From: Pseudoxanthomonas sp.
GTDB taxonomy: Bacteria; Pseudomonadota; Gammaproteobacteria; Xanthomonadales; Xanthomonadaceae
Direction of reading: 5' to 3'
NCBI GenBank assembly: GCA_047601105.1
Contig: JASGJT010000001.1
Location: 492,879 to 556,878 of the forward strand
DNA length: 64,000 nt
The notes beneath the pieces are model-generated. The model was given only the letters and a program-made list of their open reading frames with translations, was not told where the DNA came from and searched no databases. Below, one piece after another: positions 7,607 to 62,413 of this stretch (positions are counted from its first letter, which is position 1; every line of letters starts with the position of its first letter). A program made the position numbers and the translations under genes.

Positions 7607-7613
7607 GGCGCTT

Positions 7614-16919: not shown

Positions 16920-17087
16920 CCCACCGGGCGGGTCGGGCTTGACAGCCCGGCCCGGTCCGTGATTCCACTATAAATAGCGTGAAGCTGAACGCCCGGGACT
17001 CCAATCCCGGGCGTTGGCTTCTATCACGGGCCGTTTTGCCCGACCCTTGCCGGCCCGCCGGCACCCCTCAAATCCCGAACCCGCCCC

Positions 17088-40085: not shown

Positions 40086-43018
40086 TCAATCCGCCACCAG
40101 CCGGTCGCGGCCGGCGTTCTTGGCCTGGTACAGGCGGCGGTCGGCCAGGGTCATCAGTTCGCGACGGCTGCGCCCGTCGTCGCCCAGACAGGCCATGCCC
40201 ACGCTGGCGGTGCAGCGCACGAGCTTGCCGTTTGCGGGCACTTCAAGCCAGCCGATCTGCCGGCGGATGCGCTCGAACACCGTCCGCGCCTGCACTGGTT
40301 CCAGGCCGTGCGCGACCAGCAGGAATTCCTCGCCGCCGAGGCGCGCCGCGAACACGTCACTCTGGCTGCTGTCCACCAGCAGCTGACCGATTTGGCGCAG
40401 CATTTCGTCGCCGGCCTCGTGGCCATATTCATCGTTGATGCGCTTGAAGTCGTCGATATCCAGCAACGCCAGCGCCAAGGGCGTGGCAGCGGCGCTGGCC
40501 TGTTGCAGGTGCTGTTGCAGGTGGTGTTCTGCCTCGCGCCGGTTCGGCAGATTGGTCAGCTCGTCGCGGCTGGCCTGCCAGGCCAGGCAGCGCAACAGTC
40601 GTTCGCGCTCCTGCGAAGCCTGTTCCAGCGCCTGGTTCTTTTCGTTCAGTTCCTGCGTGCGGTCTTCGACCAGTCGTTCCAGATGTTGCTTCTTGCGCAG
40701 CATTTGGCGCTCGCCCAACCGGTACAGCCAGAAGGCGAGCAAGGTCACACCCACCACCACCAATGCGAAGAACCACGGTTGCAACCACCATGGCACTTTG
40801 CGTTCGAACACCAGTTCCGCCTGGCTGGGCGCAGTGGCGTCGCGCCAGTCCCCCGGCGCTCGCGTGGCCTGGACCTGGAAGCGGAAGCGCCCCGGCGGCA
40901 GGTTGGTATAAATCGCTTCGGCGATGTTGTCGGTTTCGTTCCAGTCGTGCTCGAAGCCTTGCATGCGGTAGCGATAGCGCAACTTGCCGGGCTCACGCAG
41001 GCTCAAGCCGGCATAGCGGATCTGCAGGCGGTGCGACGACGCGGACAGGTCGTAGACGGCTTGTTGCGGCAGGGCCGTACCATCGACACGCACTGATTCG
41101 ATCACCAAGGGCGCGACCAGGGCGCGCTGGCGCTCGGCGATGGCTGGGTCGATCACCGCCACGCCGTTGGCGGTGGGGAACCACAGCCGCCCGTCGCGCA
41201 TGCGCCAACCCGCCGACATGCCACTGCCATTGGCCTGGCTGCCGGGCATGCCGTCGCTGTAATCGAAGGTTTCCACCGACAGGCGCTCACGACGGCCGCC
41301 GTCGATCTGGTCGAATTCGCTGCGCGCCACGCGGAAGATGCCGTGGTTGCTCGACAGCCACAGGTAGCCGTTGCCGTCGTCGAGGATGCGGAACAGGGTG
41401 TCGCGCGGCATGCCGGCGGCACGGTCGTAATGATGGAGGCGGCCTTCGCGCCACCGCAGCAAGCCGTGGTCGCTGGCGATCCACAAGGTGCCATCGGCAT
41501 CGCCGAGAAAATCGAACACGCCGATCGCCGGGAAACCGGGTTCGCCCGTCCGCAGCGCGCCATCGGCCGTCAGCGTGGACAGGCCTTCCGGGGTGCCGAT
41601 CCACAGCACGCCATCCGGCGAACGATGCAGCGCACGGACAAAGGCGCCGGACAAGCCATCCTCGCGCCCGTAAACGCGCTGCAGGCTGCCATTGCGATAA
41701 TGGGCCAGGCCGTTGCTGGTACCAACCCACAGCTCGCCGCCAGCTTCTTCCAGCAGCGCGCGCACCTGCTGCGACGGCAGGCCCTGTTTGCGGTCGATGC
41801 GCTGCATGATCGCACCAGTGCGCGACAACCTCAGCACGCCGCCATCGTAGGTACCCCCACCCACACACCGCCATCATTGGCCGCCGCCAACGACAATACC
41901 GACGGCTCCGATCCGCCGTCGCGCGACATCTGCACCCGCGACAGATGACCGTCGCGCCACACGTCCAGCCCAGCGGCATGACCCACCCAGGCCGAGCCAT
42001 CAACGCCCTGCACGATCACGCGCACATAGTCGTCGCCCAGTCCGTTGGCCTGGGTCAGGCCGAATACTGCGCCATCGGAAATACGGAACAGGCCGTTGGT
42101 GGTACCGGCCCAGAGCAGCCCTTCGCGATCCTCGAACAAGGTCGAGCCACGCCCGACCAATCCGTTGCGCGCGGTCAGCACCTGGGTCTTGCCATCGCGG
42201 TAGCGGATCAAGCCATCGGCCGTGGTCAGCATCCACAGGTTGCCGTCGCGGTCTTCCAGCACCGATTCGACGCGATCCTGTCGCACCTGCGTCGCCCGCC
42301 CGTTGCGCACGCGCCAGATGCCACCATCGCCAGCCACCCAGTAACCGCCATCACGCGCCGCCAACAGGCAGCGCACCGTGCGCGCCGGCATGCCCAAGCG
42401 TGCGCCGTAATCTTCCAGCTTGCCTTGGCGCAGGCGGCGCAGGCCACGACTGCCGCCCATCAGCACATCGCCATTGGCCTGCAACAACAGGCTGAAGACC
42501 GGGCCATCGCGCAACCCCGCCTTCGCGCCCAAGTCATCAATGCGCCCATCCGCACCCTGTCGCAGCAGCGTGGATTCGGTACCGACCCAAAGCGCGCCGG
42601 CTGCATCACGATACAGTGCGGTCACCGCGCGAACCTGGCCCAACTCCCCACTCATGCGCTGCCAGCGGCCCCGATGGAAGCGCACCATCCCACTGGCCGT
42701 GCCCAGCAGCATCGCGCCGTCGGCATCGCGCAGCACCGCGCGCACCCCGGCAATCTCCATGCCCGGCACGCTGATCGCATCGTAAGTCTCGAAACTGCGC
42801 CCATTGAAACGCGCCGCACCTTCCCAGGTACCCAGCCACAGGAAGCCCTCGTCATCCTGGCTGATGCCGTGGATCAGGTCATGCGGCAACCCCGACTTCA
42901 TCGTCCAATGGGTGACGGTGTATTCGTCAACACTGCGCGCAGGATCCAGCGCCCGCGCCGGAAAGACCGGCAGCAGCAGGCAGCAAAGCAGCAAGGCAAG
43001 GCGCGCGATGCGTCGCAA
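40086..43018 (-). pseudogene. Periplasmic beta-propeller/Y_Y_Y sensor diguanylate cyclase split by a frameshift near 41856
   Basis: ORF 41831-43018 (signal peptide, WxGT propeller repeats) and ORF 40086-41864 (more repeats, Y_Y_Y-like YRYRMQGFE, TM, DELTNLPNRR, RLGGEEF). Total 2933 nt = 3n+2; the break is at a G5 tract where WVGTYDGG is expected. Confidence 0.85.
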
Positions 43019-43181
43019 GCGTCGGATTCGGTGGAAACGAAACCATGATTATCAACGCAAAACCGGCTGCGTGGGCATGGCTGACGCTTACTTTGAAGTC
43101 ACATTCCCGCAGATGCACCAGGCAGGAAACCGCCATCAGATGCGCTCGCCCGGCAACGCCAAGGCCGTAGTGAAACCCTTT

Positions 43182-44380
43182 CTACGGCAACACTGCATCC
43201 AACGATTCCTGCTCCAGCCGGATCGGTTGCTGGAGCAAGGCTTGTGCAATGTCGTTCCAACCTGCGCGCTCGGCCCAGCGCACCATTGCCGCCAGGACAG
43301 TGGCATCGGGTGTTTCCGCCGTTTGTGCAATTTCCGATGGAATTTCATGCGGCGACATGCGCCACGGCCGCAGCGTGCGACCGGCCTCCTGCGCAACCTT
43401 CGCCAGCGTGGCGGCGATGCGGAAACCGCCTTCATCGATGTCACCCCAATGCAGAACCAGTGCCTGCGCCGGCAGCTCGCGCAAGATGCGTGCATAAGCC
43501 GTGCGCCAGGCCGGCGAAGGCATGCCACCGGTGTAAAGCAACAAGGCCGAAGAACGCCCTGCCACTTGCGTCGCATCGTGGAAGCTGGCCAGGTTCTCGA
43601 TGGTCAGCAAACACGTGGCCTGTGTCTGCAGGCGGCGCAGGGATTCGACCGGCAAGCCCAGGTATGGCCTCAGCAACGGCAGATCACCATCATCGAGCAT
43701 GGCCGTGCCTTCGCCGCATACCCGCATTGGTTGCGGTTCGCGGCGCAGGCCCAGTGCCGCCCAGACGTGTTCCTTCTCCAGCCCGCTGGCGGCCAGTTCA
43801 CCGGTGACCAGCACTTCCAGCCATGGCGTCAGTTTTTCCAGGCGCTTGCTCTGGCTGCTGCCGAACAGGCGCACGCTTTCGCGGCGCAGGATGCGTTCGT
43901 GTCCGCTGTCGCCTTGGCGTGCGGCAACGGCATGGGCCGCGGCGGCGAGGTCGCCCGCACTGTCGGCATCAGCGCCATGCACCTTGCGGCCTTGCCGCCA
44001 CGCGTCCAGCACCTCGTTGATGATCGGGAACCGTGCAACCCAGGGCGACAACAAGGTGCTTGCCGCATCGGCTTTTTCATCCAGCAAGCGGATACCAAGA
44101 TGCCGTGCCAAGGCTGGCAGGTCGGCCACGGACAGGCGCAGCAGCTTCTGGCCATCGCCATGCAGGCGATCACGCCTGGCCACGATGGCACCGTCGCGTT
44201 CGGCCAGGGCGATCTGTGCGTGGAAGGTTTCCACTTCGGCCAGCGATTCCAGTTTCTGGTATTCGGCAGCATCGCGAGCGCTGGTCATCGACAGCGACAC
44301 GGCGCGGGATTCATCGCGCAGGCGTGCCACTTCGGCACGGCGCAGCAATCTCGCTCCAGCACGCGCCGTGCTGCACTCAT
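43182..44380 (-). CDS. jetD: Wadjet JetD (Toprim nuclease), with an apparent frameshift near the 5' end
   Basis: LLTIENLASF (Glu), LYTGGMPS, HWGDIDEGGFRIA (DxD). The ATG at 44380 overlaps the jetC stop (ATGA) but is out of frame with the body after codon 10. Confidence 0.8.
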
Positions 44381-47300
44381 GCTGCGCCCTGTTCGCGCGC
44401 AATGCGTTCTGTTTCGGCGATGAGTAGCGCCGGATGCAGGTCGAACTGGTCACTGAGCAGCAGTTCGCGTGCCGGCTCCTGCACTTCGATGCGTTCGGCC
44501 TGCAGCAGGTCGCCATCGCGGAACAGCTCGATGTAGCTGTCCAGCACGCCGCTGAGCGTGCCCTGTGCAGTATCCGGCGCGGCCAGCACCAATTGCAGCC
44601 CCAGCGAACGCAGATAGTTGGTGGTGGCGCGTGCGTTCTGCGCATCGATCTTGTCGCCGAATTCGTCCAGCAGGATCAGGCCCAGCCCACCCGGATGCGC
44701 TTCGCTCTTGCCGTAGGCGGCAGCCAGCGCCGCGCCGGCAATCACGTACAACGGCGCACGATGCTCTCCACCGGAACCCGAACGCATGCGCTCGCTCAAG
44801 GTGCCGATCACGCGATCTTCCTGCTTGATCTGCACCTCGAAGCGGAAGAAGCGCCGGTAATCATCCAGCGGTGAAGTCGCGGTGCGCGCGCTGGTGCTGT
44901 CTTCGATCAACTCGCGAAACGCTGCCGGCACCTCGCCGGCGCTGCCGAACAGGTTGTCCTCGCCACCAAGATCGGCGGCACGCTGGATGAAACGATGCAG
45001 GTCGCGGAAATTCGCCAGCACTTCGTAATGGAACTGGTAGCGCTCGTTGTTGGAGAACGCCGGACTGCTGCGCAAGGTGCGGTTGAGCGTGGCGATCTGC
45101 CGCTTGAGGTGATCAAAATTGTCGTACAGCGTGGAGGCGACGTTGGCGCGGAAGGTTTCCACCGCCGTGGCATAGGCCTGGTCGGCATCGGCCTTGTAGC
45201 GCACCAGTTCGGCGTCGCGTAGGTGGGCCAACCTCTTTTGTAGCAACGCGCGTGCCACCCGCCATTGGTCGGCGGAAAATTCCAAACGAAAATCACTATC
45301 GTCCTTGGCGTACTGCGACAAGGCGCTCCAGGCTTCGGGCAGCAGGCCGGCCAACTGTTTGTCGCTGTCGCGGGCGCGTTCTTCGCAACGCTTGCTACGT
45401 TCTTCCAATGCGGGGAACTTCGCATCGAGTTCGTCGCGCTGGCGTTCGACCCGGTTCGGATCCACATCCGCATCGGCGAAGGCTTCCACTGCACGGCGGG
45501 CAACGATGTCTTCCTGTGCGCGCAATGCTTCCAGCAGGCGCTTCGTCGTGGTGACGTTGTTGCCGGCTTCGCGTTCATCACCGACCAGACCTTCAATGCG
45601 TTTTTCGCAAGCGCCGAGTTGCTCGCCCAGTTCGCGTACCTGCTCGCTCAGGCGCAACAAATCCGGGTCCTGCGATGCGGCGTGGCCTTGTTGTTCGTTG
45701 CGATAGCGTTGCTCGACCTGATGATGTTCCAGCGCGCGGTCATGCAGCGATTGCGCCATTTCCGCCGGCTGCGCCAGTCGTGCCAGTCCGCGCTGGCAGG
45801 CATCGGCGCGTTCGACCTCCGGTTTCAATTTGCGCAGGTCGGTTTCCGCCGCGTCGATTTCCTCGCGCAGCACACGCGAACGCGCACGGTTGTCGCTTGC
45901 GCCGATCTTCAGGTCAGTTGCTGCCGGCAGGCGCAGGCGTTCGATGCTGCCGCCTTTCGCCAGCAGGCCGTCGCGGGTCAGGCCCTGGCGGCTGCGGATC
46001 AGTTCGGCCTCGGTATCCACGCAACGCAATTCACCCAGTTGCCGGCGCAGGAAGGCCAGCGCCTCGGCATTGTCGCCTTGCAGCAGCGCGGCCACACTGT
46101 CGCTGGCAGGTGCCGCATTGCGTGCACTGCGTGCGTGGCTGCCCAGCGCCAATTTGATGCCATAGACCGAGCGCCCGGCCTGCAGCGAGCGGTACAGTTT
46201 GACCGCGCGTTCTTCGTCTTTCTCCGCGATCAACAGCGCTTCGACATTGCTGCGCAGATAGGCTTCGATGGCCGGTTGCCACGATGCGTCCTTGATCCGC
46301 ACCAGATCGCAGACCGGTTGTGCGGTGATGCCTTCATCGGCCAGATAGTTCATCAAGCGCACTGCATCGGGATTCAGCTCGGCTTGTCCAGCGGCGAGAC
46401 GCTTCTGGTTGTCGCGTGCAATTCTCAGGCGGTCGTTGGCTTTTTCCAGCGCCGCGTGGCGCTCACGCGAATGGCCGTTGATCGCATCCAGCAGCGGCGT
46501 GGCAGCAGCCAAGGCGGTTTGCGCTTGTGCATGCAGTTGTTCCGGTGCCCACGGCAGCGCAGCATCACCGGGCAGTGCGGCCAGCACCTCATACCAGTCG
46601 TTCCATGCCGATTGTGCCTTCGCCAGCGCGTTGGCATCAACGGTGGGCAGGCCGAGCTTACCCAGTGCCTGCCATTGTGCGTACACGGTGGAGACTTCGC
46701 GCAGCAGTTCGGTTTTTAGTTTTGCCAACTGCTCGCGGTCGCGTCCGGCCAGTTCGTCGAAGCGCGCTTGTTCGCCATAGCCCTGGCTGCCTTGCTGGCG
46801 CGCTTTTGCGCGCTCGTGTTCCTCGCGCAGCAGGTCGCGTTCGCTGCGTGCTTCGGCCAGGGTTCGCTGGGTGGCGGCCAGTTTGTTCTCGGTGTCGTGC
46901 TGTTCGCCTTCGGCACGCTCGACCTGTTCGCCCAGCAGATCACGCGCATATTCGGCAGCCAGCGCGCGGTACGAGGCCGCGCGTACCGCATGTTTGGAAA
47001 TATCGGCATAACGACGCTCGACGCCATCGGCGGCATTGATGCGCTGTTCGACCTGTTCAATCCTTTCCTTGAACTGGCGGAAACTCTCCAGCAACGCACG
47101 GAAGCGGGCGACATCGGTCGGTCGATCTTCGGCCACCAAAGTGCGCACCCATAGGTCAACATCATCTTGCTTCTGCAAGTTCAATGCGTTCTGGAAAGCC
47201 TTGCGATAAGCGTTGATATCCGGGTGGATGTTCGGCGCAGCGCGAAGGCGCAGCAGCAAATCCTTGACGAAGCGCTCGCTGGCGGCGTGCAGTTCCGGCT

Positions 47301-47808
47301 TGGTACCGGCTTCGCGGCAGCGGCGCGCGATCAGCTCCTTGAACGAGGCCCAGACCAACGGCAGCTCCTTGCCCTTGATCCGCTCGATGTGGTCTTCCAA
47401 TTCCAGCGCCACACCCGGCAGCAGGTACAGGCCATGCAGGCGGTGATCCGGCTCGTCCACCGAGGCGCCCAACGCAATGCCGGCGGTCAGCGGCACGCCG
47501 CTTTCTTCGTCGCGGAACACCAGGCTGATGTAGGTGGTTGCGGTGCGGCGCTTGCTGCCTTCATCGCCGCTGCGGAACACGCCCAGACAGTAATCGCGGA
47601 TGCTGCGTGCGCGGGCACTGCCGCCGGCCTGTGCGTTGAAGCGGATACGGCTGCGGTCGCCGCCCAGCAGCACGATCTGCAGGGCATCCAGCAATGCACT
47701 TTTCCCCGCACCATTGGGCGCGATGATCGCGCTGGTGGCATCCAGTTGCAGGGTTTGTGACTCGAACAGGAAGAACTGCACCAGGTGCACGCGCTCAAGC
47801 AGTTGCAT
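44377..47808 (-). CDS. jetC: Wadjet JetC (SMC/MukB-like ATPase)
   Basis: Walker A APNGAGKS, long coiled coils, SGGE signature, Walker B LILLDEF; GGAGG RBS 6 nt before ATG 47808. Confidence 0.92.
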   Translation of the reverse strand: MQLLERVHLVQFFLFESQTLQLDATSAIIAPNGAGKSALLDALQIVLLGGDRSRIRFNAQAGGSARARSIRDYCLGVFRSGDEGSKRRTATTYISLVFRDEESGVPLTAGIALGASVDEPDHRLHGLYLLPGVALELEDHIERIKGKELPLVWASFKELIARRCREAGTKPELHAASERFVKDLLLRLRAAPNIHPDINAYRKAFQNALNLQKQDDVDLWVRTLVAEDRPTDVARFRALLESFRQFKERIEQVEQRINAADGVERRYADISKHAVRAASYRALAAEYARDLLGEQVERAEGEQHDTENKLAATQRTLAEARSERDLLREEHERAKARQQGSQGYGEQARFDELAGRDREQLAKLKTELLREVSTVYAQWQALGKLGLPTVDANALAKAQSAWNDWYEVLAALPGDAALPWAPEQLHAQAQTALAAATPLLDAINGHSRERHAALEKANDRLRIARDNQKRLAAGQAELNPDAVRLMNYLADEGITAQPVCDLVRIKDASWQPAIEAYLRSNVEALLIAEKDEERAVKLYRSLQAGRSVYGIKLALGSHARSARNAAPASDSVAALLQGDNAEALAFLRRQLGELRCVDTEAELIRSRQGLTRDGLLAKGGSIERLRLPAATDLKIGASDNRARSRVLREEIDAAETDLRKLKPEVERADACQRGLARLAQPAEMAQSLHDRALEHHQVEQRYRNEQQGHAASQDPDLLRLSEQVRELGEQLGACEKRIEGLVGDEREAGNNVTTTKRLLEALRAQEDIVARRAVEAFADADVDPNRVERQRDELDAKFPALEERSKRCEERARDSDKQLAGLLPEAWSALSQYAKDDSDFRLEFSADQWRVARALLQKRLAHLRDAELVRYKADADQAYATAVETFRANVASTLYDNFDHLKRQIATLNRTLRSSPAFSNNERYQFHYEVLANFRDLHRFIQRAADLGGEDNLFGSAGEVPAAFRELIEDSTSARTATSPLDDYRRFFRFEVQIKQEDRVIGTLSERMRSGSGGEHRAPLYVIAGAALAAAYGKSEAHPGGLGLILLDEFGDKIDAQNARATTNYLRSLGLQLVLAAPDTAQGTLSGVLDSYIELFRDGDLLQAERIEVQEPARELLLSDQFDLHPALLIAETERIAREQGAA

Positions 47809-48428
47809 CTTCGTCCTCCATGGCATCGTCTTCGCTGTCGTTCGTCCTGCAGGTTGTGCTGGTCAAGACGTTGCAACCATTGTTCGCCGACGATATCGAC
47901 GATGGCCGGACGCACGCGCAGGTGGAACGGCTGCAGCTCGTCGGCTTCGCCTTCTACCAGTCGGCACGTGCCCCAGCGTTTGAGCGTGCGCGCAAGCTCG
48001 CGCAACATGCCGACTTCGGGCATCGGCCGCCCGGCCAGTGCGGGATAGGCTTCCTGCAAGTCCGGCAGCTCCACCACCACCTCGCCGTGGTCCTCGACCT
48101 GGCCCTGGCGCATCGCCTCGTCATAGCGCTGGCGCAGGATCAGCAACAGCAGGGTTTCCTGCAGGCTCACCGGCGTGCCTTCGCCGTGGGCCGGCAGGGC
48201 GATGACGTAGCGATGCTGGGCGTTGCGCTCCAGGCGCATGCCCAGCGGTTCCAGCGCGGCGGCGAAATCGCCGAGAAATTCCTCGACCAGGTTGTAGGCC
48301 GTGCGCGCGTTGCGGTCGGCGTGGTAGAGCACCTGTTCGACGACCAGCCGATACGCAGCGCGCTCGAAATCCTGCACGGTGTAGATGCCATTGGACAGTT
48401 GGCTCAAGGTATTCCAGCTGCGTTTCAT
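47795..48428 (-). CDS. jetB: Wadjet JetB (DUF4194/MksE-like), with an apparent +1 frameshift near the 3' end
   Basis: FERAAYRLVVEQVLY, ETLLLLILRQRYDE, HLRVRPAIVDIV; ATGA overlap with jetA. As written the ORF runs to 47487; the likely native end DSEDDAMEDEDATA* (TGA 47795-47797) lies in the shifted frame. Confidence 0.8.
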
Positions 48429-49873
48429 GCGGTTTTCCGTTGCGATGGCGCAAGGCGATGGATGACGAAGCGCGGTGCGCGCAGGTAGCCGTTGTCGGTG
48501 GCTTCGCTGGCATCGGTCAACTCGACGCGGAACCCGCGCAGCAGGCGACCCAGCGGGTCGTCACGGCGCAGGCCACCGATGCGATGGCTGCGCAGCGCCA
48601 GGGTCAGCAAGGCCTGGTAGGCACGCAGGTCTTCGATGGAGGCGATGCCGAGGCGTTCCGAATCAAGACTGCCGCTGGCCGGCAAATGGCGGCCAACGTA
48701 GCGGGCCATGTCCTCGGCGGTGACCAGACGTGCGCGCTTCATCCGCCGCAACAACGACAGCCGCGCCAGTTGTTCCGGCGTGGGCGGCTGCACGATGTTG
48801 GCGCTGCGCGGGATCGGCTGCGGCTTGCGCCGTGGCGAGCGCAGTTGCGATTCGTCCATCAACGCATCCGGCGCAACCGGCAGGCGCAGTTCGTCTTCCA
48901 GTGCAGTCATTGCGCCGGCAATGGCGCGTCTCAACAACACGTCCAGCTTGTCCGGCGCGCGCAAACGGTAATCGAGAAAGGCCAGAGCGCGGCGATTGGC
49001 CTGGCGGATGTCGTCATCCAGCCGGCCGAGGTATTCGTCGATGCGTTCCAGTTCGCGCAGGCGGCGCAGGCTGCGCTGCAGGCGTACGTCGGCGCGTTCG
49101 CCATCGCCGCCGGTGACGTGCTCGCGATACCAGTCCAGCACGCCATCGCGCAGTGCGGTGGTTTCGACCTGCTGCGCCATCGACAGGATCGAACTGCGCC
49201 GCGCCAACGGATGGTCGGCCTTGTGCAGGTCCGCATAGTCGCCGATGAAGAACTGGCCGACATAACGTTCGAACCACTGCCGGGCGAACTGCGCGGTCGT
49301 CTCGGCCTTGCTCAGCTCCGGCATCAGATCGCGCACTTGCAGGCTCATCGACGACAGCGATACCAGCAAGCGCCGCGCCTCATCGGCCGCCTTGTCCAGC
49401 ATATCTCCTGATGCCTTCCCTTCGATCACCTGCTGCAACTGCAACTCGATAGTGCGCACACTTGAAGCCACGAAACTCGGAGGATGCTCAGCGAATTCAA
49501 TCAAGGTGGACAGCAATGTATGTACCGCCGGCACCATCGACACCATTTCGCGCGCACCGACCTTTTCCTGGCGCAACCAGCCAGCCTGGCGAAAGCGGTC
49601 GTGGATGTTGTTGGCGCGCGTGACCAACGGCGTGTCCGGGGTTTGCCCTTCCTCGTCCTCCCACGGGTCATCGCTCAGCAGGTAGCGCTCAATGGCCGCG
49701 ACGATCTCGCGCCGGGCGAAGCCGTGGCTGGGCGGCAAGGGCGCATCCGGGCCGAAGAATTCATCGAACAGCCGGCACAACAGCAACCAGTAATGCGCAC
49801 GATTGGCCGAGGCCAATGGCCCGAACAAGCCTGACGGCACGACCGAAAACAACGGCGGCGGCGTGGTGGTCAA
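48425..49873 (-). CDS. jetA: Wadjet JetA (kleisin/MksF-like)
   Basis: First gene of a four-gene overlapping operon ending in SMC and Toprim genes; LFSVVPSGLFGPLAS N-terminus, LRQAGWL winged-helix-like segment; TTG start. Confidence 0.8.
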   Translation of the reverse strand: MTTTPPPLFSVVPSGLFGPLASANRAHYWLLLCRLFDEFFGPDAPLPPSHGFARREIVAAIERYLLSDDPWEDEEGQTPDTPLVTRANNIHDRFRQAGWLRQEKVGAREMVSMVPAVHTLLSTLIEFAEHPPSFVASSVRTIELQLQQVIEGKASGDMLDKAADEARRLLVSLSSMSLQVRDLMPELSKAETTAQFARQWFERYVGQFFIGDYADLHKADHPLARRSSILSMAQQVETTALRDGVLDWYREHVTGGDGERADVRLQRSLRRLRELERIDEYLGRLDDDIRQANRRALAFLDYRLRAPDKLDVLLRRAIAGAMTALEDELRLPVAPDALMDESQLRSPRRKPQPIPRSANIVQPPTPEQLARLSLLRRMKRARLVTAEDMARYVGRHLPASGSLDSERLGIASIEDLRAYQALLTLALRSHRIGGLRRDDPLGRLLRGFRVELTDASEATDNGYLRAPRFVIHRLAPSQRKTA

Positions 49874-50104
49874 GCGTTTTTCCGTTGGTAATGGTTGCGG
49901 GAGGAAGTGGCCATTTTCACAAATTGGCCGAAGCCTGTCTCACGGGTTGAGACGGGCATTGGCCGAGGCGTGAAAAGATGGAAGCGCATCCGCATTGTCG
50001 GTGCCCGCCTGACATATGGCGAGGTGTGACAGCAGAGTGGGCGGAACGGAGCTCGTGGTGTGCTAGATTGGCAACGGCTTCCGCTGTGTGCAGCCCCTGC
50101 GACC

Positions 50105-50326
50105 ATGACCACTTCAATCATCACCCTGGATTCCGGCAAGCGCGGTGGGCGTCCGTGCATCCGCAACCTGCGCATCAGCGTATACGACGTGCTGGACATG
50201 TTGGCCGAAGGCATGGGCGAAGCGGAAATCCTCGAAGATTTTCCGGAACTCACTTCGGCAGACATTCGCGCCTGCCTGGCTTTCGCCGCTGATCGCGAAC
50301 ACAGCCTGTACACCTTGGCAATATGA
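50105..50326 (+). CDS. DUF433 family protein (putative antitoxin)
   Basis: GKRGGRPCIRNLRISVYDVLDMLAEG...EILEDFPELTSADIRACLAFAA. Confidence 0.9.
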   Translation: MTTSIITLDSGKRGGRPCIRNLRISVYDVLDMLAEGMGEAEILEDFPELTSADIRACLAFAADREHSLYTLAI

Positions 50327-50667
50327 TGAAACTGCTGCTCGACGAAAACCTGTCGAGGCGCATCGTTCCGTTCCTGCAAGCTGTGTATCCCGGTTCGTCG
50401 CAGGTAGTGCTGGCCGGGCTGGAAAGCGCATCGGATGCGGACGTGTGGCAGTACGCGAAGGACAACGGCTTTGTCATCGTCAGCCGCGATTCGGATTTTC
50501 ACGAGCGTTCGCTGGTACACGGGCATCCGCCGCAGGTCATCTGGCTGAAAATCCCCAATCGTTCCAAGACGGTAGTGCTGAACCTGCTGGTCGAGGAATG
50601 CAATGCCATCGAACAGGCGCTGGCGCAACCAGACATGGCCTGTCTGGAACTGACCTTGGGCAAGTAG
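50323..50667 (+). CDS. DUF5615 PIN-like protein (putative toxin)
   Basis: KLLLDENLS, SDADVWQYA, IVSRDSDF, PPQVIWL; ATGA overlap with DUF433. Confidence 0.88.
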   Translation: MMKLLLDENLSRRIVPFLQAVYPGSSQVVLAGLESASDADVWQYAKDNGFVIVSRDSDFHERSLVHGHPPQVIWLKIPNRSKTVVLNLLVEECNAIEQALAQPDMACLELTLGK

Positions 50668-50695
50668 CGGCGACGCCTGCTACCGGGATCACACC

Positions 50696-53600
50696 CTACC
50701 GCTGCTCATCCGCCTTCACCCGGAACCACGCCGCGTACAGCGCCGGCAGGAACAGCAAGGTCAGCGCGGTGGCGATGAACAGACCGCCCATGATCGCCAC
50801 GGCCATGCTGCCGTAGAAGGCGCTGCGCGACAGCGGGATCATCGCCAGGATCGCCGCCAATGCGGTCAGCACGATCGGGCGGAAGCGGCGCACGGTGGCG
50901 TCGATGATCGCGTGCCAGCGGTCGTGGCCGGCGTCGATGTCCTGCTGGATCTGATCGACCAGAATCACCGAGTTGCGCATCACCATGCCGGCCAATGCAA
51001 TGGTGCCGAGCATCGCGACGAAGCCGAACGGCATCCTGAAAATCAGTAATGCCAAGGTCACTCCGATCAGGCCCAACGGCGCAGTCAGCAACACCAATGC
51101 GGTGCGCGAGAAGCTGCGCAATTGCAGCATCAGCAAGGTAACCACTGCCAGCAGGAACAACGGCATGCCGGCCTTGATCGAATCCTGCCCGCGTGCCGAA
51201 TCCTCGATGGAACCGCCGACTTCCAGCAGGTAACCCTGCGGCAGGTTGGCGCGAATTTCCTCCAGCGTCGGCAATATCTGCGCGGTCACCGTGGCCGGGG
51301 TGAGATCATCGCGAATGTCGGCGCGCGCGATCACCGACGGCAGTCGGTCGCGGTGCCAGATCACGCCATCCTCGAAGGTGTATTGCAGCCGCGCCACCTG
51401 CGACAGCGGCACGCTGCCGTTGACAGTGGGCACGGCCAGGCTGCCGAGCAATTCAAGATGCGTGCGTTCGTCATCCGGACCACGCAGCAGCATTTCGATC
51501 AGTTCGTTGTCTTCGCGATAGGTGCTGACGCGCAGGCCCGACAACGAACTGGTCAGCAAGTTGGCGATGTCGCTGCTGCTGACGCCCAGCGCGCGTGCGC
51601 GTTCCTGGTCGATGTCCAGCCGCACCACCTTGCTCGGCTCGCTCCAGTCCAGGTTGACGTTGGTCACATGCGGGTTGGCGCGGATTTTTTCCGCGGCCTG
51701 GCGGGCGATGGCCTGCACTTGCGCGATGTGTTCGCCGGAGATGCGGAACTGCACCGGATAGCCGACCGGCGGGCCGTTTTCCAGCCGGGTCACGCGCAGT
51801 TGCAGTTCCGGGAATTGTGGCGTCACTTCGTCGATCAGCCATTCGCGCAATGCTTCGCGCGCGTGCAGGTCTTTTGTCAGCACCACGAACTGGCTGAAAT
51901 TGGTCTGCGGCAATTGCTGGTCCAGTGGCAGGTAGAAGCGTGGCGAGCCGGTGCCGATGTAGGCGACGTAATTTTCGATGCCGTCGCGGTCCTTCAGCAT
52001 CGCTTCGAGCTTGCGTGCCTGCGCTTCGGTGGCGCGCAGCGAGGCGCCTTCGGCCAGCTCGATATCGACCATCAATTCCGGCCGGGTCGAATCCGGGAAG
52101 AACTGCTGCGGGACGAAACGGAACAGGAAGATCGAGCCGACGAAAGCTACCGCGGTGATACCGATCACCAGCCAGCGATGACGCAGGCTGGATTCCAGCA
52201 ACGTGCGGAAGCGGCGATAGAACGGCTTCTGGTAAGGGTCGTGTGCATGTGCCTGCTCGTGCGCGGCCGGTGCAATCCAGCCGGCGAAGGCGGGAAAACG
52301 ATCCGCCAGGCGCGCGCGCCACGAACCGGGCTTCGGCGCCTTCGGCGGCAAATGCAGATCCGGCAGCATCTTGTCGCCCAGGTACGGGATGAACAACACC
52401 GCCGCGATCCACGACACGCACAAGGCAATCGTCACCACCTGGAACAGCGAGCGCGTGTATTCGCCGGTACTCGACGCGGCGGTGGCAATCGGCAGGAAAC
52501 CGGCAGCGGTGATCAGCGTGCCGGTCAACATCGGGAAGGCGGTGCTCTGCCAGGCGAAGCTGGCGGCTCGCAGGCGATCGAAACCCTGTTCCATCTTTAT
52601 CGCCATCATCTCCACCGCGATGATCGCGTCATCGACCAGCAGGCCCAGCGCCAGCACCAGTGCACCGAGTGAGATCTTGTGCAGGCCGATGTCGAAGTAG
52701 TGCATCGTGGCGAAAGTCATCGCCAGCACCAGCGGGATGCTCACCGCCACCACCAGCCCGGTGCGCAGGCCCAGCGAGAAGAAGCTGACCAGCAGCACGA
52801 TGACGACGGCTTCGGTCAGGGTCCTGACGAATTCGCCGACCGATTCGCGCACCGCATGCGGCTGGTCGGAGACCTTGCGCAATTCCATGCCCGCCGGCAG
52901 CGTCTGTTGCAGGCGCTGGAATTCGCTTTCCAGCGCATCGCCCAAGCGGATGATGTCGCCGCCGTCCTGCATCGCCACTGCAATGCCGATGGCGTCCTCG
53001 CCCATGAAGCGCATGCGTGGCTGCGCCGGGTCGGCAAAGCCGCGCTTGATCGTGGCGATGTCGCCCAGCTTGAAGCTGTGCCCGTTGGCGCGGATCGGGA
53101 AATCGCGGATGTCCTCCACCGTTTGCAATTGCCCGCTCACGCGCAACTGCACGCGCTCGCCGGGCGTTTCGAAGAAACCGGCCGAGGCCAGCGCATTCTG
53201 CTGCTGCAAGGCCTGCTGTACGCTCACCATCGACACGCCCAGCGTGGCCAGCTTGGTGTTGGACAGTTCGATCCAGATCTTCTCGTCCTGCAGGCCGATC
53301 AGATCGACCTTGCCGACGTCATCAACGCGCTGCAATTGCAACTGGATGCGGTCGGCGTAGTCCTTCATCACCGCGTAATCGAAGCCAGGTGCGGTCAGCG
53401 CGTAGATATTGCCGAAGGTGTCGCCGAATTCATCGTTGAAATACGGCCCATACACGCCGTCGGGCAGGCTGGCGCGGATGTCGCCGACGCGCTTGCGCAG
53501 TTGGTACCAGAGTTCCGGCACGTCCTTCGATTTCATCGAATCGCGTGCCATGAAGATCACCTGCGATTCGCCGGGACGCGAGTACGAGCGGATGAACTCG

Positions 53601-53839
53601 TATTCGCCGGTGCTCATCAGCGCCTTTTCCACGCGCTCGGTGACCTGGCGCGAGACTTCCTGCGCGGTCGCGCCCGGCCACACCGTGCGCACCACCATCG
53701 CGCGGAAGGTGAACGGCGGGTCTTCGGACTGGCCGAGGTGGCGATACGACCACGCGCCGACCAAGCCCAGCACAATCATCGCGTACAGCACCAGGCTGCG
53801 GTGGGTCAGTGCCCATTCGGAGAGGTTGAAGCGGCGCAT
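50696..53839 (-). CDS. RND efflux permease (AcrB/AcrD/AcrF family)
   Basis: 1047 aa; QSEDPPFT, LGLLVDDAIIAVE, RNSVILVD, RFRPIVLT motifs. Confidence 0.95.
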   Translation of the reverse strand: MRRFNLSEWALTHRSLVLYAMIVLGLVGAWSYRHLGQSEDPPFTFRAMVVRTVWPGATAQEVSRQVTERVEKALMSTGEYEFIRSYSRPGESQVIFMARDSMKSKDVPELWYQLRKRVGDIRASLPDGVYGPYFNDEFGDTFGNIYALTAPGFDYAVMKDYADRIQLQLQRVDDVGKVDLIGLQDEKIWIELSNTKLATLGVSMVSVQQALQQQNALASAGFFETPGERVQLRVSGQLQTVEDIRDFPIRANGHSFKLGDIATIKRGFADPAQPRMRFMGEDAIGIAVAMQDGGDIIRLGDALESEFQRLQQTLPAGMELRKVSDQPHAVRESVGEFVRTLTEAVVIVLLVSFFSLGLRTGLVVAVSIPLVLAMTFATMHYFDIGLHKISLGALVLALGLLVDDAIIAVEMMAIKMEQGFDRLRAASFAWQSTAFPMLTGTLITAAGFLPIATAASSTGEYTRSLFQVVTIALCVSWIAAVLFIPYLGDKMLPDLHLPPKAPKPGSWRARLADRFPAFAGWIAPAAHEQAHAHDPYQKPFYRRFRTLLESSLRHRWLVIGITAVAFVGSIFLFRFVPQQFFPDSTRPELMVDIELAEGASLRATEAQARKLEAMLKDRDGIENYVAYIGTGSPRFYLPLDQQLPQTNFSQFVVLTKDLHAREALREWLIDEVTPQFPELQLRVTRLENGPPVGYPVQFRISGEHIAQVQAIARQAAEKIRANPHVTNVNLDWSEPSKVVRLDIDQERARALGVSSSDIANLLTSSLSGLRVSTYREDNELIEMLLRGPDDERTHLELLGSLAVPTVNGSVPLSQVARLQYTFEDGVIWHRDRLPSVIARADIRDDLTPATVTAQILPTLEEIRANLPQGYLLEVGGSIEDSARGQDSIKAGMPLFLLAVVTLLMLQLRSFSRTALVLLTAPLGLIGVTLALLIFRMPFGFVAMLGTIALAGMVMRNSVILVDQIQQDIDAGHDRWHAIIDATVRRFRPIVLTALAAILAMIPLSRSAFYGSMAVAIMGGLFIATALTLLFLPALYAAWFRVKADEQR

Positions 53840-58838: not shown

Positions 58839-60896
58839 TCAACCCGCCATGCCGCCGTGGCGCAACAAGGCATCGATCTTCGGCGCGCGGCCGCGGAAGG
58901 CGCGGAAGTTGTCGGCCGCGCTGCGACTGCCGCCGCGCGACAGCACTTCATGGCGGAAGCGCGCGCCGGTTTCGGCGATCTTCTCCGGCGCTTCCTCGAA
59001 CGCCGCATAAGCATCGGCGCTCAGCACTTCGGCCCATTTGTAGCTGTAATAACCGGCCGCGTAGCCGCCGGAAAAAATGTGGCCGAACTGGTGCGGAAAG
59101 CGCGCCCACGCTGGCGGGATGTTCACTGCCACTTCGCTGCGCACATCCTGCAGCAAGGCCATCACCTCGTCCTTCGCCGGGTTGAAGCGCGTGTGCAGCA
59201 ACAGGTCGAACAGCCCGAATTCCAATTGCCGAACGGTCTGCATCCCGCTCTGGAAATTCTTTGCCGCGACCATCTTGTCGAACAGCTCGCGCGGCAACGG
59301 CTCGCCGGTTTCGGCATGCGCGGTCATCGCCTGCACGCGCTGCCATTCCCAGCAAAAGTTCTCCATGAACTGGCTCGGCAATTCCACCGCATCCCATTCG
59401 ACACCGTTGATGCCGGCCACCGGCAGTTCGCCGACTTCGGTCAGCAACTGGTGCAGGCCGTGGCCCATTTCATGGAACAGGGTGATGACCTCGGTGTGGC
59501 GGAACGTGGCTGGCTGGCCGGCATTGCCCTTGCCGAAATTGCAGACCAGATACACGACGGGCGTTTGAACAGCCTGCGCCTGCACGCCGTCGTGCTTGTC
59601 GCGGCGATTTCGGCAATCGTTCATCCACGCACCACCGCGCTTGCCTTCGCGTGCGTACAGGTCCAGATAGAACTGGCCGACCAGCGAACCGTCCTTGTTG
59701 ATGATGCGGAAAAAACGTACATCTTCATGCCAGACCGGCGCGTTGTCGGCTTGCACTTGTACGCCGTACAACGTTTCGATGACACCAAACAAACCGGCCA
59801 GCACTTTCGGTTCGGTGAAATACGGTTTCACTTCCTGCTCGGAAAAGCTGTAACGCGCCTGCTTGAGTTTTTCGCTGGCATAGGAAACATCCCAGGCTTC
59901 CAGCGCATTCAATCCAAGATTCTCGCGCGCGAAACTTTCCAGTTCGGCACGGTCGCGCTGCGCAAACGGCTTGGCGCGTGCGCCGAGGTCGCGCAGGAAG
60001 GCCAGCGCTTCGTCGGCATCCTTCGCCATCTTGGTTTCCAGCGAATACGCGGCGTAATCGGCAAACCCCAACAGCGCGGCCAACTCCGCGCGCAGTGTCA
60101 GCAACTTGCGGATGATGTCGCTGTTGTCCAGCGCCGGGTTGTCGCCCTGGTCGGACGCGCGCACCGCGTAGGCGCGATACACCTGCTCGCGCAGCGCGCG
60201 GTCGTCGGCGTGGGCCAGCAGCGGCAGGTAGCTGGGTGCTTGCAGGGTGAATTTCCAGCCGCATCTGTTGCCAGGTTTGTCGTGCTCTTTTTCGGCGGCG
60301 GCACGGGCGGCAGTGACCACTTCGGCCGGCAGGCCGGCCAAGCGCGTTTCGTCCTCGACGATCAGCGACCACGCATCGGTGGCATCAAGCAGGTTTTCGG
60401 AAAACTTCGACGACAGCGCGGCCAGTTCTTCCTGCACCTGCGCAAAGCGTGCTTTCTTGTCTTCGGGCAATTCCGCGCCGCCGAGGCGGAAATTGCGTAG
60501 TTCATTCTCGACGGCCTTGCGCCGCGCATCGCTTGCATCGGCAAATTCCGGCGCTTCGGACAATTGCCTGTATTGGCCGAACAACGCCAGATTCTGGCTC
60601 AGCGCGGTGCCGAAGCGCGTCACCTTGGGCAGGTTGTCGTTGTAGGCGGCGCGCAGTTCCGGCGTGTTGGCCACGGCTTGCAGGTGGCCGACCACGCCCC
60701 AGGCGCGCCACAGTTTCTCGGTGGCGTCGTCGATGGGCACGACGAAGTTTTCCCAGCTGACCGGGGAGATGGTTTCGGCAGCCTTCACTGCGGCTTCGGC
60801 CTCGGCGATCAATTGGTCGATGGCCGGGGCAATGTGTTCAGGCCGGATTTCGTCGAAACGCGGCAGGCCGGAGAAATCGAGCAGTGGGTTGGTCAT
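58839..60896 (-). CDS. prlC: Oligopeptidase A (M3 family)
   Basis: MTNPLLDF, KRGGAWM, FHEMGHGLH (HExxH), VELPSQFMEN, YAAGYYSYKWAE. Confidence 0.95.
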   Translation of the reverse strand: MTNPLLDFSGLPRFDEIRPEHIAPAIDQLIAEAEAAVKAAETISPVSWENFVVPIDDATEKLWRAWGVVGHLQAVANTPELRAAYNDNLPKVTRFGTALSQNLALFGQYRQLSEAPEFADASDARRKAVENELRNFRLGGAELPEDKKARFAQVQEELAALSSKFSENLLDATDAWSLIVEDETRLAGLPAEVVTAARAAAEKEHDKPGNRCGWKFTLQAPSYLPLLAHADDRALREQVYRAYAVRASDQGDNPALDNSDIIRKLLTLRAELAALLGFADYAAYSLETKMAKDADEALAFLRDLGARAKPFAQRDRAELESFARENLGLNALEAWDVSYASEKLKQARYSFSEQEVKPYFTEPKVLAGLFGVIETLYGVQVQADNAPVWHEDVRFFRIINKDGSLVGQFYLDLYAREGKRGGAWMNDCRNRRDKHDGVQAQAVQTPVVYLVCNFGKGNAGQPATFRHTEVITLFHEMGHGLHQLLTEVGELPVAGINGVEWDAVELPSQFMENFCWEWQRVQAMTAHAETGEPLPRELFDKMVAAKNFQSGMQTVRQLEFGLFDLLLHTRFNPAKDEVMALLQDVRSEVAVNIPPAWARFPHQFGHIFSGGYAAGYYSYKWAEVLSADAYAAFEEAPEKIAETGARFRHEVLSRGGSRSAADNFRAFRGRAPKIDALLRHGGMAG

Positions 60897-61048: not shown

Positions 61049-62173
61049 TCAATCCTCTTGCGCCACACAATCCAGCGCCGGCAGGCCGCCGCCGTTGACC
61101 GCCGTGGCGATCGCTGCATCCGGTTCGACCATGTTGATGCGCCGCTGCAGATACCAGTCGCGGTTGTAGTAGCTGTGCGCGTAGCGCTCGCCGCTGTCGC
61201 AGAGGATGCTGACGATGGAGCCATCGCGGCCGGCCTCGCGCATGCGTTGCGCGGCAGACAGCACGCCGACGAAGTTGGTGCCGGTACTGCCGCCGACACG
61301 GCGGCCCAAGCTGGCACTGACCCAGCGCATCGCCGCCAGGGACAGGTCATCCGGCACCTTGACCATCGCGTCGATGCAGCCGGGCACGAAGCTGGCCTCC
61401 ACGCGCGGGCGGCCGATGCCTTCGACCCGCGAGCCGTTGGGGATCGACAATGCGACATCACCGCAGCCATCCAGCACATCGCGGTAGTAATCGAAGAACA
61501 CCGAGATTTCCGGATCCGCGCACAGGATCTGCGTGTCGTGGCGGCGATAGCGCACGTAGCGGCCCAACGTCGCGGCGGTGCCGCCGGTGCCGGGGCTGCA
61601 CACGATCCAGTCGGGGATCGGGTGCGGTTCGCGCTCCATCTGCCGGAAGATCGATTCGGCGATGTTGTTGTTGGCGCGCCAGTCGGTGGCGCGTTCGGCA
61701 TAGGTGAACTGGTCCATGAAGTGGCCGCCGGTCTCGCGCGCCAGTCGTTGCGATTCGGCATTGAGGCCGCAGGCGCTTTCGATCAGATGACAGCGACCGC
61801 CCTGGAATTCGATCGCGGCGATCTTTTCCGGCGAGGTTGCGCGCGGCATCACCGCGATGAAGGGCAGGCCCAGCAAACGCGCGAAATACGCCTCGGATAC
61901 GGCGGTGGATCCACTGGACGCCTCGATCACCGGCGCGCCTTCGCGCAGCCAGCCGTTGGCCAATGCGTACAGGAACAGCGAGCGCGCCAGCCGGTGCTTG
62001 AGGCTGCCGGTGGGGTGGCTGGATTCGTCCTTCAGATAGATGTCGATGCCGGGAAACCCGGGCAGGGCCAGCGGGATCAGGTGGGTGTCGGCGGAGCGGT
62101 TGAAGTCCGCCTCGATCCGGGCGATGGCCTGCGCGGCCCAAGCGCGCTGGCCGCGTGCACTGTTTGCGGTCAT
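61049..62173 (-). CDS. PLP-dependent cysteine synthase-like / cysteine desulfhydrase family protein
   Basis: [16 protein letters not shown] (PLP Lys), [32 protein letters not shown]. Confidence 0.88.
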
Positions 62174-62261
62174 GGTGGTGTTTGCGGGTTGCCCGGAGGA
62201 CATTCTAGGTTTTTCGTGCCTTGCCGGGGCAGGCGTTGTTTGAGGATGGCTCGAATCGCGC

Positions 62262-62310
62262 GGTTCTTGCTCCTCATTCCGGCACAAGCCGGGATGACGA
62301 GCAAAAAACC
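62262..62310. repeat. Degenerate REP-like palindrome
   Basis: ggttcttgctcctcattccggc-acaa-gccgggatgacgagcaaaaaacc. Confidence 0.78.
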
Positions 62311-62413
62311 GGGCTGCCCAGATCCCCGTTAACGCCGCTTTTCCATTTCGCAAACAACATCATCTCTTTGCAAGGCGCAGGCTTGCGGCATCCGAAGCCA
62401 CCGGAGGTGTGTC

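What the first reader, a model, noticed from the sequence alone, without database searches (positions are those of the whole stretch)
43182..49873. Complete Wadjet (JetABCD) anti-plasmid operon in a non-mobile context
Four overlapping genes encode a kleisin-like protein, a KITE-like protein, an SMC ATPase with intact Walker A/B and signature motifs, and a Toprim nuclease with E and DxD. Established: Wadjet extrudes loops and cleaves small circular DNA. No integrase, tRNA or IS is visible nearby, so the island appears domesticated between lysR and an RND operon. The same window encodes dprA and a pilin-like gene, so DNA uptake and plasmid restriction may interact (inference). Subtype is probably type I-like but was not verified.
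Basis: partly seen in the sequence, partly recalled or inferred. Interest (0 to 1): 0.65.

Follow-up and report, generated by a model that had tools for sequence, protein, structure and literature searches.

The report
Type I Wadjet island, two frames broken
This is an ordinary type I Wadjet (JetABCD) anti-plasmid system on a recently gained 7.6-kb island in a Pseudoxanthomonas genome. As assembled, two of its four genes carry small frame-breaking insertions, which are more likely sequencing errors than real damage.

Summary
The four minus-strand genes at 43182-49873 are jetA, jetB, jetC and jetD of a type I Wadjet system. PADLOC E-values are 2e-228, 2e-93, 0 and 6e-145, and the ATPase and Toprim motifs are intact.

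- **The operon is not cleanly complete.** The acidic tail of jetB is out of frame. jetD has a 2-base insertion at codon 11, so the start codon coupled to jetC ends after 31 codons.
- **The frameshifts are probably errors.** The assembly has single-base insertions in about 3% of conserved genes, five of them in hrcA, and the sister genome has none. I put assembly error at about 65% and real inactivation at about 35%.
- **The locus is not domesticated.** It sits on a 7,631-bp insertion (43065-50695) that also carries a DUF433/DUF5615 toxin-antitoxin pair. The closest relative has 49 bp at that site, between a GGDEF sensor gene and an RND pump. Wadjet is patchy in the genus and lies at other sites elsewhere.
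- **The link to DNA uptake is weak.** dprA and a pilin gene exist but lie 28-30 kb away in a housekeeping cluster.
- **Side observation.** In this Lysobacteraceae Wadjet clade, jetD has been lost at least 10 separate times while jetABC stays intact.

This is a new member of a known kind, of low interest.

The parts
43065..50695 (.). Inserted island (7,631 bp) carrying jetABCD and a toxin-antitoxin pair. The closest relative has 49 bp here.
   Evidence: Colinear blastn with G008 contig C32: window 40083-43064 matches G008 1641-4620, and window 50696-56000 matches G008 4670-9991. The ends have no terminal repeats. Island GC is 63.4% against 64.2% for the genome. GC3 of jetC and jetD (0.73) is below the genome's 5th percentile of 0.748.
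48425..49873 (-). jetA (kleisin-like, 482 aa, TTG start), intact.
   Evidence: PADLOC JetA1 E=1.8e-228, residues 2-475 on profile positions 5-479 of 482. Pfam PF18982 JetA. Its stop overlaps the jetB start as ATGA.
47795..48428 (-). jetB (KITE, DUF4194) canonical span. The frame is lost near 47837-47852, in the acidic C-terminal tail. As assembled, the ORF runs on to 47487 (313 aa).
   Evidence: PADLOC JetB1 E=1.9e-93 matches residues 1-197 only, of 211 profile positions. Homologues end ...LQRLDQHN + acidic tail + TGA, 14 nt inside jetC. The same tail, NDSEDDAMEDEDATA*, is in another frame here. The nearest homologue's JetB is 208 aa.
44377..47808 (-). jetC (SMC-like ATPase, 1143 aa from the ATG at 47808), intact.
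   Evidence: PADLOC JetC1 E=0, full length. Walker A K36, signature GSGGE 1011-1015 and Walker B D1048/E1049 are conserved in 9 homologues.
43182..44380 (-). jetD (aCAP + Toprim nuclease). The coupled ATG is at 44380. A 2-base GA insertion lies at 44349-44352, and the ATG frame stops at 44287-44285. The body is readable from the TTG at 44348 (388 aa), which has GGAG 5 nt upstream.
   Evidence: PADLOC JetD1 E=5.9e-145, profile positions 10-393 of 394. Homologues read CGG/CGC-TTG/CTG where the window reads CGA-GA-TTG. E251, D303 and D305 (numbered from the TTG) are invariant. The AF2 model has pLDDT 85; Foldseek hits are topoisomerase VI-A 1d3y, JetD 7til and Spo11.
43164..43192 (-). Hairpin (GCCGTAG...CTACGGC) spanning the jetD stop. 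It may be a terminator stem.
   Evidence: Sequence. It was not picked up by the terminator scan because it has no T tract.
50105..50326 (+). DUF433 antitoxin-like gene (73 aa), divergent from jetA.
   Evidence: Pfam PF04255, E=1.7e-23; coordinates.
50323..50667 (+). DUF5615 PIN-like toxin gene (114 aa). Its start overlaps the DUF433 stop as ATGA.
   Evidence: Pfam PF18480 E=6.1e-34; PIN_10 is a weak match.
40086..43018 (-). Core flanking gene, a Reg_prop/Y_Y_Y/GGDEF sensor diguanylate cyclase. It is split into two ORFs by a 2-base insertion at 41853-41854.
   Evidence: Pfam. The gene is a single frame of 979-1026 aa in relatives. The window reads GGT[AC]CCCC where G008 reads AGT--GCCC.
50696..53839 (-). 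Core flanking gene, an RND efflux pump (1047 aa). The island's right boundary is at its stop codon.
   Evidence: 95% identical to G008, where it lies next to the GGDEF gene.

Best explanation
The locus is a type I Wadjet (JetABCD, also called MksBEFG or EptABCD) anti-plasmid system. It lies on a 7.6-kb island together with a DUF433/DUF5615 toxin-antitoxin pair. The island entered the 49-bp spacer between a GGDEF sensor gene and an RND pump in this Pseudoxanthomonas lineage after it split from its closest sequenced relative.

The mechanism below comes from studied homologues and was not tested here. JetA (kleisin), JetB (KITE) and JetC (SMC ATPase) form a dimeric loop-extruding motor. When the motor has extruded a small circular DNA completely, it stalls. 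The JetD dimer then docks through its aCAP domain onto the JetC heads, and its Toprim site cuts the DNA. Plasmids below about 100 kb are destroyed and the chromosome is spared.

All catalytic motifs are present. The two frame breaks are small insertions, one in the jetB tail and one at jetD codon 11. I judge them more likely assembly errors (about 65%) than real mutations (about 35%). If they are errors, the system is intact and active.
For: Identity:
- All four genes match PADLOC type I models over their full length and the corresponding Pfam families.
- Gene order and the ATGA or 14-nt overlaps match the nearest homologue, L042, whose products are JetA 483, JetB 208, JetC 1142 and JetD 399 aa.
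- The JetC ATPase motifs and the JetD Toprim residues are conserved.
- The JetD model resembles topoisomerase VI-A, P. aeruginosa JetD and Spo11.

Island:
- The closest relative G008 has an empty site.
- Three more genomes of the genus have the two flanking genes adjacent.
- Wadjet lies at other sites in relatives.
- jetC and jetD have low GC3 for this genome.

Assembly error:
- Of 161 G008 ORFs with an orthologue in this genome, 5 are frameshifted here. These are hrcA (five single-base insertions in about 300 bp), cstA, a PBP5-type carboxypeptidase, a DUF2271 gene and the GGDEF gene.
- Every one of these changes is an insertion.
- The reverse test found 0 of 164 in G008.
- The genome is in 5 contigs yet scores only 94.7% complete. 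The other assemblies of the genus listed with 10 or fewer contigs score 99-100%.
- The jetD change is a +2 insertion relative to homologues; the jetB change fits +1 (or -2).

Mechanism: 10.1101/2022.10.04.510915, 10.1101/2023.11.03.565488, PMC10889018 and PMC10586767.
Against:
- Three frameshifts within 10 kb is more than the genome-wide rate predicts. That rate is about one per 20 kb of coding sequence, which gives about 0.5 expected in 10 kb.
- jetD is the gene most often inactivated in this Wadjet clade, so a real lesion is plausible.
- No plasmid restriction was measured. The function is inferred from homology only.
- No promoter-like site was found, although that scan is weak in GC-rich DNA.
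Confidence: 0.85

Rival explanations
1. The Wadjet system is disarmed or decaying, and the frameshifts are real. JetD is then either not made from its coupled start or made only as a version 11 residues shorter from the TTG at 44348. JetB carries a 116-residue out-of-frame tail that also runs over the jetC start. Plasmid cleavage would be lost or weakened, and the island is on its way to the nuclease-free state seen in relatives.
For: - In the clade with JetC at least 60% identical, 18 of 38 loci have no jetD and 2 others have a broken one. The JetC tree needs at least 10 independent losses.
- Three frameshifts cluster within 10 kb.
- The GA insertion is a tandem duplication (CGA-GA), which is a plausible slippage product.
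- A GGAG lies 5 nt before the in-frame TTG, so a shortened product is possible.
Against: - The same assembly has insertion-type frameshifts in conserved core genes, including five in hrcA, while the sister genome has none.
- Relatives mostly lose jetD by deleting the gene: 18 lack it altogether and G234 has a large internal deletion. Only G323 shows a small frame change.
- jetB stayed full length and unbroken in the four jetD-less loci examined, so a real jetB lesion does not fit that pattern.
- All invariant JetD residues are kept and no further stop occurs in the 388-codon body.
Confidence: 0.32
2. The genes encode a housekeeping condensin of the MukBEF or MksBEF type that organises the chromosome, not a defence system.
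For: - JetABC is structurally MukBEF-like.
- Many relatives keep jetABC without jetD.
Against: - A full-length jetD with intact Toprim residues is present.
- The locus is a recent insertion that is missing from the closest relative and from most of the genus.
- No MukB, MukE or MukF Pfam family matched.
Confidence: 0.03
3. The two frame changes are programmed ribosomal frameshifts that regulate the dosage of JetB and JetD.
For: Both lie at gene junctions where translational coupling operates.
Against: - None of the homologues aligned at these junctions (L042 and the genus relatives) needs a frameshift there.
- The sites have no slippery heptamer.
- One site needs -1 and the other +1.
- The genome has similar insertions in unrelated genes.
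Confidence: 0.01

Closest known systems
Type I Wadjet / JET nuclease JetABCD (E. coli GF4-3, P. aeruginosa PA14, Bacillus cereus Q1)
   Same: - Four genes in the order jetA-jetB-jetC-jetD with overlapping junctions.
- Best PADLOC models are all type I.
- JetC ATPase motifs are present.
- JetD has aCAP + Toprim with E and DxD.
- The JetD fold matches 7til.
   Different: - Sequence is distant from the solved proteins. phmmer and an 8-sequence profile found no significant PDB hit; MksG 8b7f scored E=0.7.
- The jetB tail and jetD codon 11 are out of frame in this assembly.
- A DUF433/DUF5615 pair travels with it.
MksBEFG of Corynebacterium glutamicum / EptABCD of Mycobacterium smegmatis
   Same: Same family and the same proposed role, plasmid restriction with a Toprim nuclease as the executing subunit (PMC10123090, PMC10586767).
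   Different: Different phylum and very low sequence identity. No localisation or copy-number data exist here.
MksBEF of Pseudomonas aeruginosa (JetD-less condensin)
   Same: It resembles the state reached by about half of the related Lysobacteraceae loci, where jetABC is intact and jetD is gone.
   Different: The window still has a full-length jetD body. The locus is an accessory island and not a conserved core operon.
MukBEF
   Same: An SMC-kleisin-KITE architecture.
   Different: No MukB, MukE or MukF family hit, a nuclease gene is present, and the distribution is patchy.

Membership tests
Type I Wadjet (JetABCD) | Four co-directional genes in the order jetA-jetB-jetC-jetD, forming one operon | tested here: met
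   Minus-strand ORFs span 49873 to 43182. jetA/jetB and jetC/jetD overlap as ATGA, and jetB/jetC overlap by 14 nt in the canonical frame.
Type I Wadjet (JetABCD) | JetA kleisin-like protein (DUF5716 / PF18982) | tested here: met
   PADLOC JetA1 1.8e-228; Pfam JetA 1.1e-51.
Type I Wadjet (JetABCD) | JetB KITE protein (DUF4194), full length | tested here: inconclusive
   The domain is present (JetB1 1.9e-93, residues 1-197). The last ~14 profile positions (198-211; about 15 residues in the canonical frame here) are in another frame, and the ORF runs 116 codons into jetC. Reads were unavailable.
Type I Wadjet (JetABCD) | JetC SMC-like ATPase with Walker A, signature and Walker B motifs | tested here: met
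   JetC1 E=0, full length; APNGAGKS, GSGGE and LILLDE are conserved.
Type I Wadjet (JetABCD) | JetD with an aCAP arm and a Toprim domain carrying the catalytic E and DxD | tested here: met
   JetD1 5.9e-145. IENL and HWGDIDEGG are invariant. The fold matches topoisomerase VI-A, JetD 7til and Spo11.
Type I Wadjet (JetABCD) | jetD open from its own start codon | tested here: not met
   As assembled, the coupled ATG frame ends after 31 codons because of a 2-base insertion at 44349-44352. An in-frame TTG at 44348 could give a product 11 residues shorter. This may be an assembly error.
Type I Wadjet (JetABCD) | Type I and not type II or III | tested here: met
   The top-scoring and nearly all PADLOC hits are JetA1/B1/C1/D1. 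The best type II JetC hit is 5.4e-16 and the best type III JetD hit is 1.6e-4.
Type I Wadjet (JetABCD) | Restricts small circular plasmids by ATP-dependent cleavage | not testable with these tools
   This needs a transformation or stability assay, or a biochemical one.
MukBEF | MukB, MukE and MukF family domains, with no nuclease subunit | tested here: not met
   Pfam returned none of these families, and jetD is present.
SbcCD | SbcC paired with an SbcD (Mre11-type) phosphoesterase | tested here: not met
   Only the shared Walker B head family PF13558 matched. The partners are JetA, JetB and JetD, and no metallophosphoesterase is present.
DUF433/DUF5615 type II toxin-antitoxin pair | A small DUF433 gene directly upstream of, and overlapping, a PIN-like DUF5615 gene | tested here: met
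   PF04255 1.7e-23 and PF18480 6.1e-34, with an ATGA overlap at 50323-50326. Activity was not tested.

The most novel reading that the evidence does not exclude
The jetD frameshift is real, and this locus is an early stage of a process that recurs in its clade. In Lysobacteraceae loci with JetC at least 60% identical, jetD was lost at least 10 independent times. Sister genomes differ in this respect; G277, for example, has lost jetD relative to G299 at 92% DNA identity. jetABC stays full length throughout, including in subclades that diverged after the loss. This would be a natural series of transitions from Wadjet to an MksBEF-like, nuclease-free motor. It suggests either strong selection against the nuclease or a JetD-independent role for JetABC.
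Probability: 0.3. Interest if true: 0.45.

Novelty: new member of a known kind. Interest (0 to 1): 0.2.

Why it matters
The locus itself matters little. Type I Wadjet is well characterised, and homologues in Luteimonas, Pseudoxanthomonas and Thermomonas are already named JetA in public annotation.

Three practical points follow:
- This assembly carries many small insertions in conserved genes. Apparent pseudogenes anywhere in it should not be read as biology without reads.
- The island's ends are defined to the base, which gives a clean example of a defence island with no mobility gene.
- The repeated loss of jetD with jetABC retained offers many closely related pairs, with and without the nuclease, in culturable Lysobacteraceae. 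These pairs could be used to test how a defence SMC complex turns into a nuclease-free one. A review raises that step only as a suggestion (PMC10586767).

Tried and rejected
- **PDB by sequence.** phmmer with JetD and JetC found nothing, and a JetD profile gave only MksG 8b7f at E=0.7. I used fold comparison instead.
- **Scan of genome contigs with JetC.** It gave only 3 loci, so I used the genome search for the survey.
- **Counting alignment gaps in blastn, G008 against this genome.** The counts were symmetric and dominated by divergent intergenic DNA, so they were uninformative. I replaced this with a tblastn frame-change test that included a GC3 check.
- **Counting in-frame stops.** This was confounded by stop-to-stop query ORFs.
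- **Repeats at the island ends.** I found no direct or inverted repeats and no target duplication.
- **Promoter scan.** No site was found.
- **A shared sequence motif at the insertion sites,** which would point to methylation-linked basecalling error. None was seen by eye across 10 sites.
- **MukBEF, SbcCD and programmed frameshifting** were considered and rejected, as set out under the rival explanations.
Full report
**What is there**

The window is C1:492879-556878 of a 3.32-Mb genome in 5 contigs. Two relatives of the same genus carry public Pseudoxanthomonas names: the 4,315,374-bp contig of G018 and the GM95 contig of G020.

Four minus-strand ORFs fill 43182-49873. PADLOC assigns all four to type I Wadjet models over their full length:

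| Gene | Best PADLOC model | E-value |
|---|---|---|
| jetA | JetA1 | 1.8e-228 |
| jetB | JetB1 | 1.9e-93 |
| jetC | JetC1 | 0 |
| jetD | JetD1 | 5.9e-145 |

Type II and III models score far lower. Pfam agrees: JetA; DUF4194; AAA_29 with SbcC_Walker_B; and JetD_C. No MukB, MukE, MukF or SbcD family matched.

JetC has Walker A APNGAGKS (30-37), signature GSGGE (1011-1015) and Walker B LILLDE (1044-1049), all conserved in nine homologues. JetD has the Toprim glutamate (IENLASFH), the DxD (HWGDIDEGGFRI) and a C-terminal EQE, all invariant in eight homologues. An AlphaFold model of JetD (pLDDT 85) matches topoisomerase VI-A (1d3y), P. aeruginosa JetD (7til) and Spo11.

**The operon is not cleanly intact**

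jetB matches its profile only to residue 197 of 211. In relatives JetB ends ...LQRLDQHN, followed by a short acidic tail and a TGA 14 nt inside jetC. In the window the same kind of tail (NDSEDDAMEDEDATA*) and the same TGA (47797-47795) exist, but in another frame. The assembled frame instead reads 116 junk codons across the start of jetC. This needs one extra base or two missing bases near 47837-47852.

jetD has an ATG at 44380 that overlaps the jetC stop (ATGA), as in relatives, and encodes MSAARRVLER. Relatives continue LLR..., but the window reads CGA-GA-TTG where they read CGG-TTG or CGC-CTG. This 2-base insertion makes the coupled frame stop after 31 codons. The 388-codon body is open from a TTG at 44348, which has GGAG 5 nt upstream.

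The nearest homologue is a metagenomic contig with JetA 81% identical. It has the canonical products of 483, 208, 1142 and 399 aa.

**Real lesions or errors?**

- I fetched 312 kb of the closest relative, G008. Its RND pump is 95% identical and its GGDEF sensor 83% identical.
- Of 161 G008 ORFs with an orthologue here, five change frame in this genome while both halves keep a coding-type GC3.
- These are the GGDEF sensor next to the island, cstA, a PBP5-type carboxypeptidase, a DUF2271 gene and hrcA.
- At the DNA level every one is a small insertion in this genome, and hrcA has five single-base insertions within about 300 bp.
- The reverse test found no credible frameshift among 164 orthologues in G008.
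- The genome scores 94.7% complete in 5 contigs. The other assemblies of the genus listed with 10 or fewer contigs score 99-100%.

This pattern fits an error-prone assembly, and the jet changes fit the same kind (jetD +2; jetB +1 or -2).

Two points count against error. Three frameshifts within 10 kb exceed the genome-wide rate, which predicts about 0.5. And jetD is the gene most often lost in this clade, as described below. I put error at about 65% and real lesions at about 35%.

**Context**

The window aligns colinearly with G008 on both sides. Window 40083-43064 matches G008 1641-4620, and window 50696-56000 matches G008 4670-9991. G008 has 49 bp where this genome has 7,631 bp (43065-50695).

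The insertion holds jetABCD plus a divergent DUF433 (50105-50326) and DUF5615 PIN-like (50323-50667) pair. The same adjacency of the GGDEF gene and the RND pump is seen in G005, G007 and G001.

The ends have no repeats. The window has no tRNA. None of the ORFs I scanned against Pfam, chosen by coding-type GC3, is an integrase or transposase.

Only 10 of 24 other genomes of the genus gave any JetC match, and the six full-length close homologues examined lie in unrelated contexts. One MAG, G017, has a 90-94% identical jetC fragment beside the orthologue of window gene 61049-62353, a different site. GC3 of jetC and jetD (0.73) is below the genome's 5th percentile.

The island is therefore a recent accessory acquisition and is not domesticated.

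dprA and a pilin gene exist but lie 28-30 kb away; dprA lies among housekeeping genes (rsmB, fmt, def and topA). This gives no specific link to Wadjet.

**Mechanism**

The mechanism is inferred from homologues. JetABC is a dimeric loop-extruding SMC motor. Complete extrusion of a small circle stalls it and licenses JetD, which docks on the JetC heads and cleaves. Circles up to about 100 kb are restricted (10.1101/2022.10.04.510915; 10.1101/2023.11.03.565488; PMC10889018; PMC10586767).

**Side observation: jetD is lost repeatedly in this clade**

- G001, G018 and G017 have jetC but no jetD anywhere in the genome.
- Forty of 300 sampled genomes of the family have a type I jetC, and many of those lack jetD.
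- After fetching the loci, I counted 38 with JetC at least 60% identical to the nearest homologue. Seventeen keep jetD, 18 lack it and 3 have it broken (this genome, G234 and G323).
- All ten loci of a distant clade keep jetD.
- JetA, JetB and JetC stayed full length in the four jetD-less loci examined, and JetC aligned full length without stops in all.
- A JetC tree needs at least 10 independent changes between absent and present.
- G277 lacks jetD relative to its sister G299 at 92% DNA identity; 66 bp stand where G299 has the roughly 1.2-kb jetD stretch.

A review says only that P. aeruginosa MksBEF probably arose by loss of JetD (PMC10586767). I found no survey of this in the library. Earlier notes of this scan report nuclease-free Wadjet in other phyla; I treat them as leads only.

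**Verdict**

This is an ordinary type I Wadjet on a small, recently gained island. It is a new member of a known kind and of low interest. The reads must be checked before its two frame breaks are given any biological meaning.

Noticed in passing
window 41853-41854 (gene 40086-43018, minus strand): The core Reg_prop/Y_Y_Y/GGDEF sensor gene next to the island is split into ORFs of 395 and 592 aa by a 2-base insertion (GGT[AC]CCCC). It is a single frame of 979-1026 aa in relatives.
   Followed up: yes
whole genome G000, e.g. C5:589400-589660 (hrcA), C4:333307 (cstA), C2:92700 (PBP5-type carboxypeptidase), C2:267934 (DUF2271): About 3% of conserved genes carry small insertions relative to the sister genome G008, and G008 has none in the reverse test. 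hrcA alone has five single-base insertions. The assembly looks error-prone, so apparent pseudogenes in it need read support.
   Followed up: yes
relatives: L049 (G277) vs L054 (G299); L004/L016 (G001); L007/L022 (G018); L010/L023 (G017); L050-L053, L059-L070: jetD has been lost at least 10 separate times in the Lysobacteraceae clade that holds this Wadjet (18 of 38 loci lack it and 3 have it broken). JetC stays full length without stops in all of them, and jetA and jetB in the four loci checked. A distant type I clade keeps jetD in 10 of 10 loci.
   Followed up: yes
L023 (G017:C41) 15956-19999: A jetC 3' fragment 90-94% identical to the window's lies at a contig end, directly upstream of the orthologues of window genes 61049-62353 and 58839-60896. 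Those orthologues are only 70-74% identical. It has no jetD. This is a different insertion site about 12 kb away in window terms and suggests recent exchange of the system between species.
   Followed up: partly
L045 10001-13448 (Logan contig ERR15947969_13707): A JetA homologue 81% identical to the window's is followed by two genes with no Pfam hit instead of jetB and jetC. This may be an orphan jetA or a disrupted locus.
   Followed up: no
window 50105-50667: A DUF433/DUF5615 (PIN-like) toxin-antitoxin pair is part of the same insertion as Wadjet and is divergent from jetA. Its GC is 58%, lower than the rest of the island.
   Followed up: partly
G001:C27:56096-59234: The orthologue of the flanking RND pump is split into two frames in relative G001 (residues 1-205 and 205-1043). 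This is a frameshift in a different assembly.
   Followed up: no
L016 and L022, about 80-90 nt after the jetC stop: In G001 and G018 the remnant of jetD ends at nearly the same point (about codon 27-30), but the downstream genes differ: a dienoyl-CoA-reductase-like oxidoreductase in one and a UDP-glucose dehydrogenase cluster in the other. I have no explanation for the shared breakpoint.
   Followed up: partly
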